From: an uncultured delta proteobacterium
GTDB taxonomy: Bacteria > Myxococcota > Myxococcia > SLRQ01
NCBI GenBank assembly: GCA_963727485.1
Contig: CAVSGM010000002.1
Location: 1,120,001-1,184,000 of the forward strand
Direction: 5' to 3'
DNA length: 64,000 nt
Shown piece after piece: positions 33,701 to 48,700 of this stretch (position 1 is its first letter; each line of letters begins with the position of its first letter). Made by a program: the position numbers.

Positions 33701-36700
33701 TCGGCGCCGACTCGCCCTTCGTGTTCATCTGGGACCAGGACGTGGTCGAGGTCATCGTCCGCGGCGTCCTCGAGGGCCGCGAGGGCATCTTCAACCTCGC
33801 CGGGGCCGGCGCCATGACCCCCAGGGAGATCGCCCGGCGCCTCCACAAGCCCTACCTGCCGCTCCCCGCCCTCGCCGTCGCCGCGGCCCTCGGGGTGCTC
33901 CGGCCGCTCGGCCTCACCCAGTACGGCCCCGAGCAGGTGGACTTCCTGCGCTACCGCCCGGTGCTCTCGGGGGCGCGCCTCGGCTCGGCCTTCGAGGGCC
34001 TCCCCCGGAAGAACACCCGCGAGGCCTTCGAGGTCTGGGCGAGGGCCCATGGCCACTGACCGCACCCTCGAGGGCCCGGTGGTCATCTCCGGGGGCGCCG
34101 GGGGCATCGGCCGGGCGCTCGCCGCCGCCTTCGCCGAGCGGGGCTGCCCCGTCGCCCTCCTCGACCTGGACCGCGCCGCCCTCGACGCCGCGGTCGCCGA
34201 GCTGACGGCCGGGGGCCACCGGGCAATGGGCCTCACCTGCGACGTCACCGACCCCGAAGCCTGCGAGGCCGCCATCGCCGAGGTGGCCGAGCGCTTCGGG
34301 GGCGTGGCCACCCTGGTGAACAACGCGGGCATCGGCCACCGCAGCGCGTTTGCCGACACCGAGGTCGCCGTGCTGCGCCGGGTGATGGAGGTCAACTACT
34401 TCGGGTCGGTCAACCTCACCAAGGCCGCCCTGCCCCACCTGCGCGCCGCGAGGGGCCGCATCGTGGTCACCTCCAGCGTCGCCGGCTTCGCGCCGCTCAT
34501 CGGCCGCGCCGGCTACGCCGCCAGCAAGCACGCCCTCCACGGGCTCTTCGACACCCTGCGCACCGAGCTCTCCCCCGAGGGGATCTCGGTGACCGTGGTC
34601 TGCCCCTCGTTCACCGAGTCGGGCTTCGAGGCGGCGACCCTCGGCGCCGACGGAGGCCGGGTCGGCGCACCCCGGTCGATGATCGGGAAGCTGGCAACCG
34701 CGGACCAGGTGGCCCGGGCGGTGGTGCGCGCGGCGGCCAGGCGCCAGCGGCTGTTGGTGCTGGCGCCGGTGGGCAAGGCGAGCCTTCTGGCCTCGCGCCT
34801 CGCCCCCGGCCTCTACGAGAAGCTCATGGCGCGAATGCTCAAGGGCGCGGTCGGCGAGTGACCCGGGCCCGGCGTCCCGGCGGTCAGAGCACGTCCCCCT
34901 GCACCCGGATGGCGATGGCCACGTAGGGGACCAGGGCGCTGACCTTCTGCCCGCTGCGGTAGGGGTGCTGGAGCCACCAGTTCACGATGAGGATCCCGGT
35001 GGGCTTCTGGAAGAGCCCGTGGTCGTGGCCCGGCAGGGTGTAGGTGACAAGCGGCCCGACGCGCTGGGTGGTCTGGGTCCGGCCGCCGCCGTAGTAGGTG
35101 GTGGTGGCGGTGTAGCGCAGGCCGGCGACCAGGTTCTCGTGCCCCACATAGACCAGGTCCGCGTCGTCGACGAAGAGCCACCCGTGGGCCGGGTCGAGGC
35201 TGTCGAGGATGGAGTCGTAGAACACCGTGTCGCCGGGCTTCAGCGACATGTCCACGCGCAGCACCCGCAGGTTGTTCCGGGCGGCGATGGGCCCGACCTT
35301 CGCCTGGAGGAGCGCCGCCAGGGTGAGGCGGTTGCCCTGGGCCGGGTAGGTCGTCCCGGCGTCGCCGGCGGCGCTGCGGGCGGCGGGGCTGTAGTCGGCC
35401 GCGGGCCCGGAGTAGGCGGCGACCTCGTTCCAGGTGCCGAAGTAGCCGATGTGCTCGAAGGTCGCCGAGAGCCTCAGCACCGCCAGCGGCTGGAGCACCA
35501 CCGCCCCGCCCACCTGGTAATACGACGGCGTGAGCAGCGGGATGAGCTCGACCCCGGCGTAGCTGCCCTTGAGGAGCATCGCGTCGCTGTCGTAGAGGCG
35601 CAGGTGGTAGCCGAGGTCGAGGCGGAGCACCGCGCCCAGGGGGTTCACCCGGCCGCCGAGGAGGGCCTGGTAGACCACCTGGCTCCGGGGGCCGAGGTCG
35701 GGGGCGGGGGCGTCGCCGGCCGCGCGGGCGGCGGCGGGGACGGCGAGGCCCATCAGGGCGGAAAGACAGCAGGCGGTGAGGCGTGCGCGGGATCCCATCC
35801 CGTCAGCATAGCGTCCGTCGGGCCCGAGGGCCTCTCTCCCGGCCGGGTCAGACCCCGCGGTCCGCGCCGGGCCACACCAGCTTGTGGAGCTGGAGGTTGA
35901 GGCGCGCCGGGAGCGCGTCGGCGAGCATCCAGGCGACGAGCTCGGCGGGATCGAGGGTCCCGTGGACCGGCGAGAGGAGCACCGCGGCGACCCGGGCGGC
36001 GAGGTCGCGCTCGCGGATCACCTCCCGGGCCCAGGCGTAGTCGGCGCGATCGGCGATGACGATCTTCACCTCGTCGTGGGGGGCGAGGTGGGCGAGGTTC
36101 TCCCAGAGGTTCGCCTCGGCCTCGCCGCTGGCCGGGGCCTTGAGGTCGACAATCTTGCGCACCTCGGCGGGCACCTCGGCGATGGACACCGACCCCGAGG
36201 TCTCCAGGAGCACGGTGCGCCCGGCGTCGAGGAGCCGCCGCATCAGGGCGAGCACCGGCTTGTGGAGCAGCGGCTCGCCGCCGGTGACCTCCACCAGCCC
36301 GGGCCCGAGGCGGTCGACCTCGGCCAGCACCTCGTCCACCGTCCACCAGGTGCCGCCGCTGAAGGTGTAGGCGCTGTCGCACCAGGTGCAGCGCAGGTTG
36401 CACCCGGTGGTGCGCACGAACACGCAGGGCGCCCCGGCGAAGGTGCTCTCGCCCTGGATGGACCGGTAGATCTCGGTGAGGCGCAGGCGCTCGGACATCG
36501 GGCGCGCAATCTAGCAGAGGTCGGCGTCGCCGTCGCAGTAGGGCGGCGTCCGGGTCTGCTGGCAGCGGCAGAGGCGGACCACCGCGAAGCCCTCGATCTC
36601 GAAGGGCCGGCAGCGCTCCGGGCCGGGGCAACCCGCCGGGTCGCAGAAGGGTCGGCGCCGCGAGCCCCCGCAGCCGCACCAGCGGTAGGCGCCCCCGGCG

Positions 36701-45700: not shown

Positions 45701-48700
45701 ATCCGACTCTGCCGCTGCCGCCACACCTCGAACCCTCCCTACTGCGATGGCAGCCACTACCAGGTGGCGGAGGATGAAGCGGGATAGCTCGGAGCAGCTC
45801 GTCGACTGCGAAGCGGGGCGGCGGATGGGGTGCGCCACCTTCTGCTGCCGGCTCATCGTCCGCTATGACCCCGGGGAGGTGGTGCGTTCCCCGGAGGGGG
45901 TGCGCAAGCACTGCGTGGACAAGGACCCGGACACGGGCCTCTGCGTGAACCTCGACGCAGCGACCGGGCGCTGCCGCATCTGGGAGCGGCGGCCTTCGGT
46001 GTGCCGGGCCTACGACTGCAACGCCGACCCCAGCCTCCAGGTGGTGCTCCGGGAGGGGTTCCGGTCGCTCGTGGCGCTGGCGTTGTCGCCGACGGTGGTG
46101 CCCCGGGATCGGTGGATCCCGGTGCCCACCCTGGACGGCGACGACGACCCTTGCTAGGCGGCCTCGGTCTTCTTGGCGCCGGAACCGGCGGCCTTGCTCG
46201 CCGCGGGGGCCTTGGCCGGGGCCTCCACCGGCTCGCTGGTGTTCTTCTCGGCGAGCTCGGCGAGGATCCGGTCGCCGGTGTGGACGATCTGGTCCCAGTT
46301 GTAGCGGATCCGCGGCTCGCACCGCTCCATCCACCGCGCGGCGAGGGCCCGGCGCTCGGGGTGCTTCTTCGCCTGCTCGACCAGGATCTCGGCGGCCTTC
46401 ACGTCGAAGAGGATCTTGGTGAGCTTCTCGGCGTGGAGCAGCCCGTAGGAGAAGTCGCGCTTGGGGTCCCAGTCCTTGAGGAAGGTGTCCACGAACTTGG
46501 GCAGGGGCCCGGCCATGGCCACCGACCACTTGTCCTTGGCGATCTTGAGGAGCAGGTGCTGCATCGCCGACCAGGCCAGGGTCTCGAGGCCGAAGTACTT
46601 GCGCTCGAGCTCGTCGCCAGCCCGCAGGGCGCCGACCTTGGCGGCGGCGAGCTTGCGCAGGAAGCGCTGGGGCTTCTTGATGGCGCCGGTGAGGTTGTCC
46701 TTGAGGACCATCAGCGACTGGATCTGGCTGGTGCCCTCGTAGACCGGCATCACCAGGGCGTCCCGGAGCAGCTTCTCCGCCGGGTAGTCCTGCATGTAGC
46801 CGTTGCCGCCGAGGATCTGCATCGCCATCCGGCTCATGGCCACCGCCTGCTCGGCGCCCTGGTACTTGAGCAGGGGGGTGAGCTCCCGGGCCCGGCGGCG
46901 GTGGCGGCTGACCTGCTTGCGGATCTCGGTGGCGCCGCCGGCCTGGCTGGGGATGCGCTGGAGGTACTCGAGGCGGGTGGCCATCTCCTCGTGGAACGCC
47001 GCCTCGACGGCGACCGCGCGCATGGCCTTGATGGTGACGTCCATCTCGTCGAGGTAGTCGTAGATCATCTCGTGGCGGGCGATGGGCTTGCCCATGGACC
47101 AGCGCTCCTCGGCGTAGTCCTTGGCCACCCGGTAGGCGGCCTCGCAGGTGCCGATGGCCTCGAAGCCCACGCCGATGCGGGCGTTGTTCATCAGGAGGAG
47201 CATCAGGTGGAAGCCGTCGCCCTCCTTGCCCACCAGCTCGCCCACCGAGTCCTCGAACTGGAGCGAGCAGGTCGGTGAACCGTGGTGCCCGATCTTCTCC
47301 TCGACCCGGTCGACGTAGAAGTTCTGGACCGTCTCGCCGTCCTTCTCCAGGGTCATGGGGACCATGAACAGGCTGATGGCGGAGAGGTCCTCCTTGTCCT
47401 CGGTCTTGGCCAGCACGAAGTGGTACTTCCCGTGGCCCGAGGTGATGAAGATCTTGTTGCCGGTGATGCGCCAGGTGCCGTCGTCGGCCTTGACCGCCTT
47501 GGTGCGCAGGGCCGCCAGGTCGGAGCCCGCCCCCGGCTCGGTGAGATCCATGGAGCCCCAGGTCTTGCCCTCGAGGATCTCGGCGATCTCCTTCTCCCAG
47601 CGGGTCGAGGTGATCTGCCCGTTCTCGTCGAAGACCGTGGAGCCCTCGCGCAGGGAGTACTGGAGCATGGTGGTGGCGATGCCCACGTGGAAGCCGAAGT
47701 GGGTCATCACCGAGGCGTCGGCGCGGCTGACCACCTCGCACAGCAGGAAGTAGAGGAGCATCGGGGCGTTCATCCCGCCGAGCTCCCGGGGCAGGGTCAG
47801 TCCCGTGGACGCCCATCTCGGTGAGCTGCTGGAAGATGGCGTCGAAGGCCGGCGCCGTCTTCACCACCCCGTCCTTCAGGGTGGTGCCCGTGTGGTCGAT
47901 CTCCGCGGACTTGGGGGCCACCTCCTCGGCGACGAAGCCCCCGAGGAGCTCGAGGATGTCCTTGTAGGTCTCCAGGGCCTCCTGCCAGGTCTTCGGCGCG
48001 TCGACGGCGGTGTAGTGCCGCTCCACGGTGTCGACGAGGGTGGACCAGTCGACGACGTGGTCCACGTAGAACTGGAGGTCTTCGTTGTCGCGGAAGAAGT
48101 TGGCCATGGCGGAGCTCCTGGGACGTATTCGGGTTCCCGGCCTTGTAGCGGGCCGAGGTGCGTGCCTGATCTATAGGCCGATGACACGTCGCGTCAACGA
48201 AGAAGTGACTGAGCCGTCATTCGGTGACGGCGCGGACGGCCAGACCCAGGGAAAGCCCCCATGGCGCCCCCGCCCGTCGCCCGCCGGCCTAGAACGGATC
48301 GCCGTGGGGATAGAGGTGCGCCACCTGCTCGGCGTACCCGTTGTAGAGCTGGGTCTTCACCGAGCGCCCCTCGCCCAGGAGCCGCTCGGTCGCCTGGGAC
48401 CACCTTTGGTGGGTGCTCTTGGGATCCACGTTCGAGTAGAAGCCGTACTCGCTGGGGACGGTGTGGTGCCAGAAGGTGTCCGGCTGCGCGTCGATGAGCT
48501 CGATCTCCTGGATGAGCTTGGGGCTCTTGTACCCGTACTTCCAGGGCACGGCGAGGCGCACCGGCGCCCCGTTCTGCTTGGGCACGGGCTTCCCGTAGAG
48601 GCCGGTGACCACCAGGGTCAGCGGGTGCATCGCCTCGTCCAGCCGCAGGCCCTCGTAGTAGGGCCAGGGGTACCAGGGCTGCGTGGAGACCCCGGGCATC

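What a model noticed while it worked through the whole genome (the two positions that open the first line are those of the whole stretch)
36511..46157. Permease-less ABC ATPase-tyrosine phosphatase fusion in a roadblock / small GTPase / truncated globin module
g02126 fuses an ABC-type ATPase to a dual-specificity (CX5R) phosphatase, has no permease beside it, and sits with a roadblock-like gene, two STAND-type regulators, a truncated globin and CDGSH proteins. It is likely a cytoplasmic signalling module in which O2/NO sensing by the globin and an MglA/roadblock switch control an ATP-gated protein phosphatase. This would add a phosphatase output and a gas sensor to bacterial small-GTPase systems.
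Evidence so far: 258 full-length fusion homologs at E<=1e-90 across Proteobacteria, Planctomycetota and Myxococcota; HCRAGLGRTG and Walker A are invariant in 23 of 23. In 22 genome loci, the g02125 family is adjacent in 21, a globin cluster in 12, an MglA-like GTPase in 12 and a second roadblock in 10. Searches 120 and 124 found 0 papers.
(Added by a program. Inside this text positions count along the whole contig: contig position 1,120,001 is position 1 of the stretch shown here. "Call 12" and the like, gene names such as g00115 and contig names such as C1 are that model's own, and its searches are not shown. The text may have been shortened before it was handed on; [...] marks where a part breaks off. 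The agent that wrote the report below was given it as the finding of a first reader that could run no searches.)

Follow-up and report, generated by a model that had tools for sequence, protein, structure and literature searches.

The report
ATPase-phosphatase switch with roadblock and globin
This is a real, widespread bacterial gene cassette, not found described in the papers searched, in which a transporter-type ATP-binding domain with no transporter partner is fused to a phosphatase and followed by a very conserved gene predicted to fold like a roadblock switch regulator; it likely works as a nucleotide-gated phosphatase that would read oxygen or nitric oxide through a neighbouring globin.

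Summary
The module is real, but its centre is not the GTPase. The core is a PstB-like ABC domain fused to a DUSP23/archaeal-type cysteine phosphatase, plus a 134-aa gene with a predicted roadblock fold (78 of 80 loci). Motifs that bind ATP in cis and the phosphatase catalytic residues are invariant in 120 homologues; the ABC signature is lost in all 120, and no permease is conserved nearby. The frameshift in this assembly is probably an assembly error. In Proteobacteria the cassette sits in Group 3 MglA operons, but most such GTPases lack it. This genome has no Group 3 GTPase, and the roadblock is equally conserved without one. The globin is a group I truncated haemoglobin, usually fused to a ferredoxin with or without a reductase. 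Where that fusion is missing, a CDGSH gene follows it (5 of 10 against 0 of 39). The STAND regulators are local extras. Best reading: a roadblock-controlled, nucleotide-gated phosphatase with O2/NO input; binding, substrate and ligand are untested. This scan found the same system before on other DNA (five notes). Two relevant surveys could not be read.

The parts
42519..43842 (-). ABC-type (PstB-like) nucleotide-binding domain fused to a CX5R cysteine phosphatase, about 440 aa; frameshifted in this assembly near 43764. Core.
42071..42475 (-). 134-aa protein (g02125), predicted roadblock/LC7 fold with a family-specific extra helix; no Pfam match. Core.
43839..44711 (-). 290-aa protein with a DUF4388/PATAN-like N-terminal part; its stop overlaps the fusion's ATG. 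Myxococcota-type accessory (directly upstream in 10 of 18 such loci).
40906..42012 (-). 368-aa conserved protein of unknown family. Myxococcota-type accessory (13 of 18 such loci).
44961..45542 (+). Group I truncated haemoglobin with a C-terminal four-cysteine (zinc-ribbon-like) domain; lacks the ferredoxin that most homologues carry. Linked partner.
45551..45787 (+). CDGSH [2Fe-2S] protein directly after the globin; likely stands in for the missing ferredoxin domain.
45747..46157 (+). CxxCxxCC (PF03692) cysteine-cluster protein; accessory, 14 of 80 loci; the true start may be 45774.
36820..38868 (-). STAND-type ATPase with a probable C-terminal HTH, 682 aa; local extra (a homologue in 1 of 80 loci, L003).
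39040..40824 (-). Degenerate paralogue of the STAND gene, no P-loop, weak HTH match; local extra (0 of 80 loci).
36511..36750 (-). Second CDGSH protein (46% identical to the first), next to queE; membership of the module uncertain.

Best explanation
The core is a patchily spread cassette of a PstB-like ATP-binding domain that has lost its signature motif, a cysteine phosphatase with its catalytic residues intact and a predicted roadblock protein; the roadblock likely binds the ATP-binding domain and sets its nucleotide state, which would gate the phosphatase, while a truncated globin likely kept reduced by a fused ferredoxin or a neighbouring CDGSH protein would supply an O2/NO input. SHOWN: the fusion, the motif pattern, the linkage, the absence of a conserved permease, the globin type and the ferredoxin/CDGSH alternation. 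PREDICTED: the folds. INFERRED: that the ABC domain no longer hydrolyses ATP in the usual head-to-tail dimer, because the motifs donated in trans have decayed while those acting in cis are invariant; that the roadblock is its partner; that nucleotide state gates the phosphatase; that the substrate is a phosphoprotein; that the globin signals to this core; and that the output reaches the transcription regulator found beside many copies (receiver-like/winged-helix protein in Proteobacteria, PAS-LuxR in Myxococcota, STAND-type here). Small GTPases are lineage-specific hosts of the cassette, not its centre.
For: Cis motifs (Walker A K and S, Q-loop Q, Walker B D and E, switch H) are 120 of 120; the signature reads L-P-L-A-x-Q-R and the D-loop Asp is 24 of 120. 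A canonical signature occurs in 0 of 120 fusions against 37 of 47 control ABC domains. Phosphatase Cys, Arg, general-acid Asp and Q-loop Gln are 120 of 120; nearest solved relatives are archaeal PTPs and DUSP23. The fusion model has pTM 0.88, consistent with a fixed domain arrangement. The roadblock lies beside 78 of 80 fusions; one of the two misses ends 112 bp downstream. In 250 phylum genomes, roadblock matches at E<1e-60 fall in exactly the 7 genomes with the fusion. It is the most conserved part (74% mean identity, against GTPase 62%, fusion 57%, MglB-type roadblock 55%; 23 loci) and equally conserved without a GTPase (69%, 12 loci) and with one (70%, 27 loci). A split form (separate ABC and phosphatase genes between the roadblock and the globin) exists in G253. 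All 5 globin-bearing phylum genomes carry the module (in G237 across a contig break), as do 3 of 4 gammaproteobacterial ones. A CDGSH gene directly follows 5 of 10 ferredoxin-less globins and 0 of 39 fused ones.
Against: No physical interaction, ATP binding, phosphatase activity or substrate is shown. No protein kinase is conserved in the loci. The globin is absent from 31 of 80 loci (some cut short), and one stand-alone copy lies beside a nitrite-reductase-like gene without the module (G552). Weaker relatives of the roadblock occur without the fusion: in G195 and among dynamin-family genes on Ruegeria plasmids. In Proteobacteria the Group 3 GTPase is present in all 53 loci that have upstream sequence, so there the GTPase link is as tight as the roadblock link. 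One fusion (L002) has none of the partners. The CDGSH count is confounded by lineage: all five cases are Myxococcota/Deltaproteobacteria, and some rows are near-copies.
Confidence: 0.45

Rival explanations
1. GTPase-centred switch: the roadblock is a GAP/GEF-like partner of an MglA-type GTPase and the fusion is the GTPase's effector; GTPase-less loci use a GTPase encoded elsewhere.
For: Group 3 GTPase within 6 kb of the fusion, nearly always directly upstream, in 53 of 60 proteobacterial loci; the 7 misses are all cut upstream. A long MglA-type GTPase is present in 8 of 18 Myxococcota-type loci. This genome has other MglA-type genes. DUF4388/PATAN proteins are known neighbours of MglA/MglB (PMC4316618 section 18).
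Against: No Group 3 GTPase, MglB-type partner or receiver/winged-helix protein in this 93%-complete genome. 0 of 8 phylum-sample genomes have a GTPase in the fetched stretch (some reach contig ends). Only 4 of 53 GTPase-bearing genomes have a full-length fusion. A separate Pfam roadblock (54 of 60) already fills the MglB slot. Roadblock conservation does not depend on a GTPase.
Confidence: 0.2
2. Redox-protection module: the globin with its electron donor is an NO dioxygenase that removes NO, and the phosphatase is switched directly by oxidation or nitrosylation of its cysteines rather than by a signal from the globin or by nucleotide state.
For: Group I truncated globin with invariant distal Tyr and proximal His. 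Fused ferredoxin in 45 of 54 family rows, at least 16 also with an FAD/NAD reductase motif. FNR-like proteins are the usual donors for globin NO dioxygenases (PMC3820574 passages). The stand-alone copy lies beside a NirK-like gene (203 bits, below the 296 cut-off). Two further cysteines of the fusion are 119 of 120 conserved. Redox sensitivity of CX5R cysteines is recalled knowledge.
Against: It does not explain the invariant ATP-binding motifs or the obligatory roadblock. The globin has a conserved extra four-cysteine domain suited to a partner contact. No NsrR-like box was seen upstream in 41 loci (recalled consensus).
Confidence: 0.15
3. Phosphate-status sensor: the PstB-derived domain docks in trans on the Pst permease or PhoU and couples phosphate uptake to the phosphatase.
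For: PstB (TIGR00972) is the best NCBIfam match in 32 of 32 homologues and the best Foldseek match; the fusions group with PstB at 80/91 and 82/94 support.
Against: Scores are 90-137 bits against a cut-off of 343. The fusions are a long-branched sister group, not nested within PstB, and the support is moderate. All 6 genomes checked have a normal PstB elsewhere. No pst or pho genes recur among the neighbour families. Pho-box pattern upstream in 0 of 41.
Confidence: 0.1
4. Conflict or repair system: the phosphatase acts on RNA ends, nucleotides or lipids, and the cassette is a mobile defence or stress-repair unit.
For: Best Pfam families are Tc-R-P and PTP-SAK, named for toxin and RNA-repair proteins. 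The distribution is patchy: 0 of 60 nearest relatives, 7 of 250 in the phylum, 5 of 350 in a gammaproteobacterial sample. Copies occur on megaplasmids.
Against: PADLOC gives only partial ABC-type matches for the fusion and nothing for 8 other module proteins. No ligase, nuclease or secretion genes recur. Recurrent neighbours are signalling proteins.
Confidence: 0.1

Closest known systems
Group 3 MglA systems of beta/gamma-proteobacteria (Wuichet and Sogaard-Andersen, PMC4316618)
   Same: The proteobacterial loci hold the published parts: a GTPase whose G2-G5 motifs fit the paper's description (against section 15), a Pfam roadblock, and an upstream protein without Pfam match that I read as the receiver-like/winged-helix protein.
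   Different: The paper's main text has no occurrence of 'phosphatase' or 'globin'. The fusion, the 134-aa roadblock and the globin are an add-on in a minority of these systems. This window has none of the three Group 3 genes.
PstB, ATPase of the PstSCAB phosphate importer (TIGR00972; PDB 9k3s)
   Same: Closest ABC family by HMM, fold and tree; Walker A/B, Q-loop and switch His kept.
   Different: Signature lost, D-loop Asp mostly lost, far below the family cut-off, no permease, fused to a phosphatase.
Archaeal PTPs (SsoPTP 2i6i and relatives) and human DUSP23 (2img)
   Same: Small CX5R phosphatase domain with general-acid Asp and Q-loop.
   Different: Those are stand-alone enzymes; the substrate here is unknown.
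MglB / Roadblock-LC7 proteins (3kye, 3t1r, 6hjm)
   Same: Predicted fold: Foldseek E 6.5e-8; VIA-align Z 15.8, rmsd 2.2 over 118 residues.
   Different: No Pfam match, 12-22% identity, an extra conserved helix (residues 58-71), and linkage to an ABC-type domain rather than to a GTPase.
Group I truncated haemoglobins (HbN, cyanoglobin) and globin NO dioxygenases
   Same: All 19 significant solved-structure matches are truncated (2/2) globins, mostly labelled group 1, HbN or cyanoglobin; distal Tyr, CD-corner Phe and proximal His are invariant in 20 of 20.
   Different: Carries a C-terminal four-cysteine domain and usually an N-terminal ferredoxin with or without reductase; I found this architecture neither in the PDB search nor in the listing of the paper search.

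Membership tests
ABC transporter ATPase subunit (PstB) | Walker A, Q-loop Gln, Walker B Asp-Glu, switch His | tested here: met
   120 of 120 each
ABC transporter ATPase subunit (PstB) | LSGGQ-type signature motif | tested here: not met
   0 of 120, against 37 of 47 controls
ABC transporter ATPase subunit (PstB) | Cognate permease gene in the operon | tested here: not met
   No conserved multi-pass membrane family within 4 kb in 80 loci (hydropathy scan; families)
ABC transporter ATPase subunit (PstB) | TIGR00972 score above the curated cut-off | tested here: not met
   90-137 bits against 343 in 32 of 32
ABC transporter ATPase subunit (PstB) | ATP hydrolysis in a head-to-tail dimer | not testable with these tools
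   needs biochemistry
Cys-based dual-specificity phosphatase | CX5R loop, general-acid Asp, Q-loop Gln | tested here: met
   120 of 120; PF22785 and PF22784 above cut-off
Cys-based dual-specificity phosphatase | Activity on phosphoproteins | not testable with these tools
   substrate unknown
Roadblock/LC7 | Roadblock alpha-beta fold | tested here: met
   AlphaFold2 pLDDT 89.9; Foldseek and VIA-align top hits are roadblocks
Roadblock/LC7 | Match to Pfam PF03259 | tested here: not met
   no match for the window protein or 8 family members
Roadblock/LC7 | Binds and regulates an NTPase | not tested
Group 3 MglA system | Group 3 GTPase gene in the locus | tested here: not met
   absent from the window and no Group 3 match in the genome; present in 53 of 60 proteobacterial loci
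Group 3 MglA system | Receiver-like/winged-helix protein and MglB-type roadblock | tested here: not met
   no match to either family in the genome; present in 53 and 54 of 60 proteobacterial loci
Group I truncated haemoglobin | Proximal His, distal Tyr, CD-corner Phe; nearest solved relatives are truncated globins | tested here: met
   the position names F8, B10 and CD1 are recalled numbering applied to the alignment with 1dly
Group I truncated haemoglobin | Haem binding, ligand preference, NO turnover | not testable with these tools
   needs spectroscopy and assays
STAND NTPase regulator | P-loop AAA_16 domain (gene 36820-38868) | tested here: met
   36.2 bits, cut-off 32.6
STAND NTPase regulator | P-loop AAA_16 domain (gene 39040-40824) | tested here: not met
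   no P-loop match; 27% paralogue over the C-terminal 430 residues

The most novel reading that the evidence does not exclude
A roadblock dimer acts as the activating partner of an ABC-type ATPase domain, replacing the second ABC subunit whose signature motif was lost. A transporter motor has thereby become a G-protein-like switch that gates a phosphatase, and its input is a self-reducing truncated globin whose electron donor is swapped between a fused ferredoxin and a CDGSH protein.
Probability: 0.3. Interest if true: 0.82.

Novelty: new variant of a known kind. Interest (0 to 1): 0.62.

Why it matters
Roadblock proteins have been proposed to regulate NTPases in general (as cited in PMC4316618), but the characterised bacterial cases I know are partners of small GTPases (recalled). 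This cassette offers a small, soluble test case of a roadblock paired with an ABC-type domain. It gives Group 3 MglA systems, for which the cited survey reports only predictions, a candidate enzymatic output and a gas-related input. It also points to CDGSH proteins as likely electron donors for a bacterial truncated globin. It is present in cultured, harmless species (for example Marinobacter, Halospina, Lysobacter, Thiohalophilus), so each step can be tested.

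Tried and rejected
The profile search for the 368-aa family never returned. That protein had no usable Atlas hit and no solved relative; it stays unexplained. A roadblock domain in the 290-aa protein: no support (hhalign 0.1%). Its N-terminal part matches the DUF4388-type family of related loci (91.7%; Atlas PatA_N 0.89, a lead only). A kinase in the N-terminal half of the metallophosphoesterase family of 6 Myxococcota-type loci: no Pfam match in 5 of 5. 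Upstream regulatory boxes in 41 dereplicated proteobacterial loci (recalled consensus patterns): FNR 3-5, CRP 4, sigma-54 3-6, Pho 0, NsrR 0; above base-shuffled controls but too sparse to use. Promoter/terminator scan of the window: no promoter; one weak terminator-like site at 40868-40882. Expression: no RNA holder listed. The metagenome scan was run with the single protein and gave only 1 locus. STAND genes as core parts: rejected. The CDGSH hits in proteobacterial loci lie about 5 kb or more from the fusion, beside other genes, and were not counted as linked. A permease partner in the operon: rejected. Paper searches that found no description.

Full report
1. What is in the window. Divergently on the plus strand run a globin (44961-45542), a second CDGSH gene (45551-45787) and a CxxCxxCC gene (to 46157). 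The fusion's first 31 codons are out of frame with the rest. A contig from an independent run that spans the place lacks one base at 43764 (depth about 3), and two runs show the same kind of indel in the neighbouring acyl-CoA dehydrogenase at 47800. I take the break as an assembly error; homologues are 433-481 aa.

2. The fusion. There are 1084 relatives at E<=1e-20 among the candidates scored and 431 loci in the GTDB collection, of which I fetched 80. In the best 120 proteins the Walker A Lys and Ser, Q-loop Gln, Walker B Asp and Glu and switch His are invariant, as are the phosphatase Cys, Arg, general-acid Asp and Q-loop Gln. The ABC signature reads L-P-L-A-x-Q-R, with Leu at the third place in 113 of 120, and the D-loop Asp is kept in only 24. 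A canonical signature pattern occurs in 0 of 120 fusions and in 37 of 47 control ABC domains (41 from this genome plus 6 PstB-like from other genomes). That the signature and D-loop act in trans across the dimer is established knowledge, recalled. Their decay beside intact cis motifs suggests nucleotide binding without the usual dimer cycle (inference). The domain is PstB-like: best NCBIfam match in 32 of 32 but far under the cut-off, best Foldseek match, and sister to PstB at 80/91 in a 62-row tree (with one long-branched row inside the group) and at 82/94 after dropping that row and 7 of 15 fusion rows. This support is moderate. The phosphatase half is closest to archaeal PTPs and DUSP23. 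The AlphaFold2 model of an intact homologue has pLDDT 90 and pTM 0.88. Two further cysteines are 119 of 120 conserved. No membrane-protein family recurs within 4 kb.

3. The 134-aa gene. It has no Pfam match, but its model (pLDDT 89.9) matches roadblock/MglB structures (Foldseek E 6.5e-8; Z 15.8, rmsd 2.2 over 118 residues), with one extra conserved helix. It lies beside 78 of 80 fusions; L073 is cut 112 bp downstream and L002 has none of the partners. In 250 genomes drawn from the phylum, matches at E<1e-60 occur in exactly the 7 genomes that hold the fusion (only 6 candidates per genome were scored). Weaker matches occur in 8 more genomes, one of them with a split form of the module. It is the most conserved part of the operon, and equally so in 12 GTPase-less and 27 GTPase-bearing loci, with 51 positions at least 90% conserved in both sets (the sets are my selection of loci with long flanks).

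4. Two operon types. I grouped the 80 loci by record title: 60 Proteobacteria, 18 Myxococcota/Deltaproteobacteria, 2 other (the HMMs were built from these loci). In Proteobacteria the usual order is unknown protein - GTPase - fusion - 134-aa roadblock - Pfam roadblock - (CxxCxxCC) - globin, with counts 53, 53, 60, 59, 54, 12 and 42 of 60. The 7 loci without the GTPase all end within 222 bp upstream of the match. The GTPase motifs fit Group 3 MglA as described in PMC4316618 (sections 15 and 18 read). In the Myxococcota type the roadblock is in 18 of 18, the 368-aa family in 13, a DUF4388-like gene directly upstream in 10, a long MglA-type GTPase in 8, the globin in 7 and a metallophosphoesterase in 6. 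The window is of this type, without any GTPase, and its genome (93% complete) has no Group 3 GTPase, though it has other MglA-type genes. None of 8 phylum-sample genomes has a GTPase in the stretch fetched (two repeat loci L001 and L075, and three reach contig ends). Conversely, of 351 gammaproteobacterial genomes 53 have the Group 3-type GTPase and 5 match the fusion, 4 at full length and each next to the GTPase (4 candidates per genome scored, one genome not scored). The cassette is an add-on to these systems and is patchy: 0 of 60 near relatives of this genome have it.

5. The globin. All 19 significant solved matches are truncated globins, and the distal Tyr, CD-corner Phe, proximal His and four C-terminal cysteines are invariant in 20 of 20 (position names recalled). 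Of 54 family rows, 45 begin with a [2Fe-2S] ferredoxin and at least 16 also carry an FAD/NAD reductase motif; my pattern under-calls the latter. The family is tied to the module: 5 of 5 globin-bearing phylum genomes (one with separate ABC and phosphatase genes, one across a contig break) and 3 of 4 gammaproteobacterial ones. The exception sits beside a NirK-like gene. A CDGSH gene follows the globin on the same strand, within about 500 bp of the haem-His motif, in 5 of 10 ferredoxin-less loci (the window included) and in 0 of 39 fused ones. Four rows with under 1.2 kb of flank were dropped; Fisher p 1.3e-4 overstates the case because the rows are related. A review names FNR-like proteins as usual donors for globin NO dioxygenases (PMC3820574, passages). 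So the globin is likely kept ferrous, which fits a sensor or an NO-consuming enzyme.

6. The STAND genes. One has an AAA_16 P-loop and ordinary relatives, named ones being from Chloroflexi and Actinobacteria; the other is a paralogue without a P-loop. They recur in 1 and 0 of 80 loci. They may fill the regulator slot taken elsewhere by winged-helix or PAS-LuxR proteins (inference).

7. Mechanism. I commit, at 0.45, to a roadblock-controlled, nucleotide-gated phosphatase with an O2/NO input from the globin. That the core is a soluble, non-transport signalling unit I put at about 0.85. Rivals are a GTPase-centred switch (0.2), a redox-protection module (0.15), a phosphate sensor (0.1) and a conflict or repair system (0.1).

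8. Literature. Eight searches (listings and abstract starts seen) showed no description of the fusion or cassette. PMC4316618: passages and sections 15 and 18 read; no 'phosphatase' or 'globin' in the main text; five domain names were not found in the two readable supplementary files, one file was unreadable, and I cannot tell whether its neighbourhood table is among those held. Burroughs and Aravind 2023 and Krishnan et al. 2020 are the likeliest places for a prior mention and are not held; I saw nothing of them beyond citations. Public names for six homologues are generic domain labels. Earlier notes of this scan report the same system on other DNA; they are not independent support. What this window adds is the GTPase-less variant, the test that roadblock conservation does not depend on the GTPase, and the ferredoxin/CDGSH alternation.

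9. Verdict. Observation confirmed with corrections; interpretation partly supported; a new variant of a known kind; interest 0.62.

Noticed in passing
L136:2167-12399 (Ruegeria plasmid NZ_CP031947.1): A 41-45% identical relative of the 134-aa roadblock occurs on five Ruegeria plasmids; in the one read it sits among four dynamin-family genes and a protein kinase, without the fusion. The family may pair with a second kind of P-loop NTPase.
   Followed up: partly
L135:5381-7721 (Ralstonia solanacearum megaplasmid CP015851.1): MglA-type GTPase, fusion and roadblock in a row, near a mobile-element gene, with no globin annotated within 6 kb; 7 plasmid records hold the fusion.
   Followed up: partly
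L131:7484-13353 (G552): Stand-alone ferredoxin-reductase-globin divergent from a cluster of multicopper oxidase, two cytochromes c and a NirK-like gene.
   Followed up: partly
L114:7087-10500 (G253): Split form of the module: 368-aa family, roadblock, separate ABC gene (also without the signature), separate phosphatase gene, globin.
   Followed up: yes
L003:11294-14318 and five more Myxococcota-type loci: A 530-aa protein with a C-terminal metallophosphoesterase and an unassigned N-terminal half, next to a long MglA-type GTPase and a second, divergent copy of the roadblock.
   Followed up: partly
window 44875-44964 (+): A possible 24-29 aa hydrophobic ORF whose stop overlaps the globin start; might be a small membrane peptide or chance.
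   Followed up: no
window 47800 and about 51416: The acyl-CoA dehydrogenase gene is split by a one-base indel absent from two runs; a vWA-like gene near 51416 looks split in the same way. The assembly carries indel errors.
   Followed up: partly
L020:14932-15570 and others: A glyoxalase-DUF2621 protein recurs near the globin or fusion in 7 of 80 loci and in 6 of the 8 phylum-sample genomes; it is absent from this genome.
   Followed up: no
L009:3967-4569 and six more proteobacterial loci: An extra 200-260 aa family with a weak C-terminal roadblock match follows the globin, usually with another roadblock gene behind it.
   Followed up: no
L134:7218-7544 (own genome, C2 near 1085200): A second, weak globin match about 80 kb from the module, with no module genes nearby.
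   Followed up: partly
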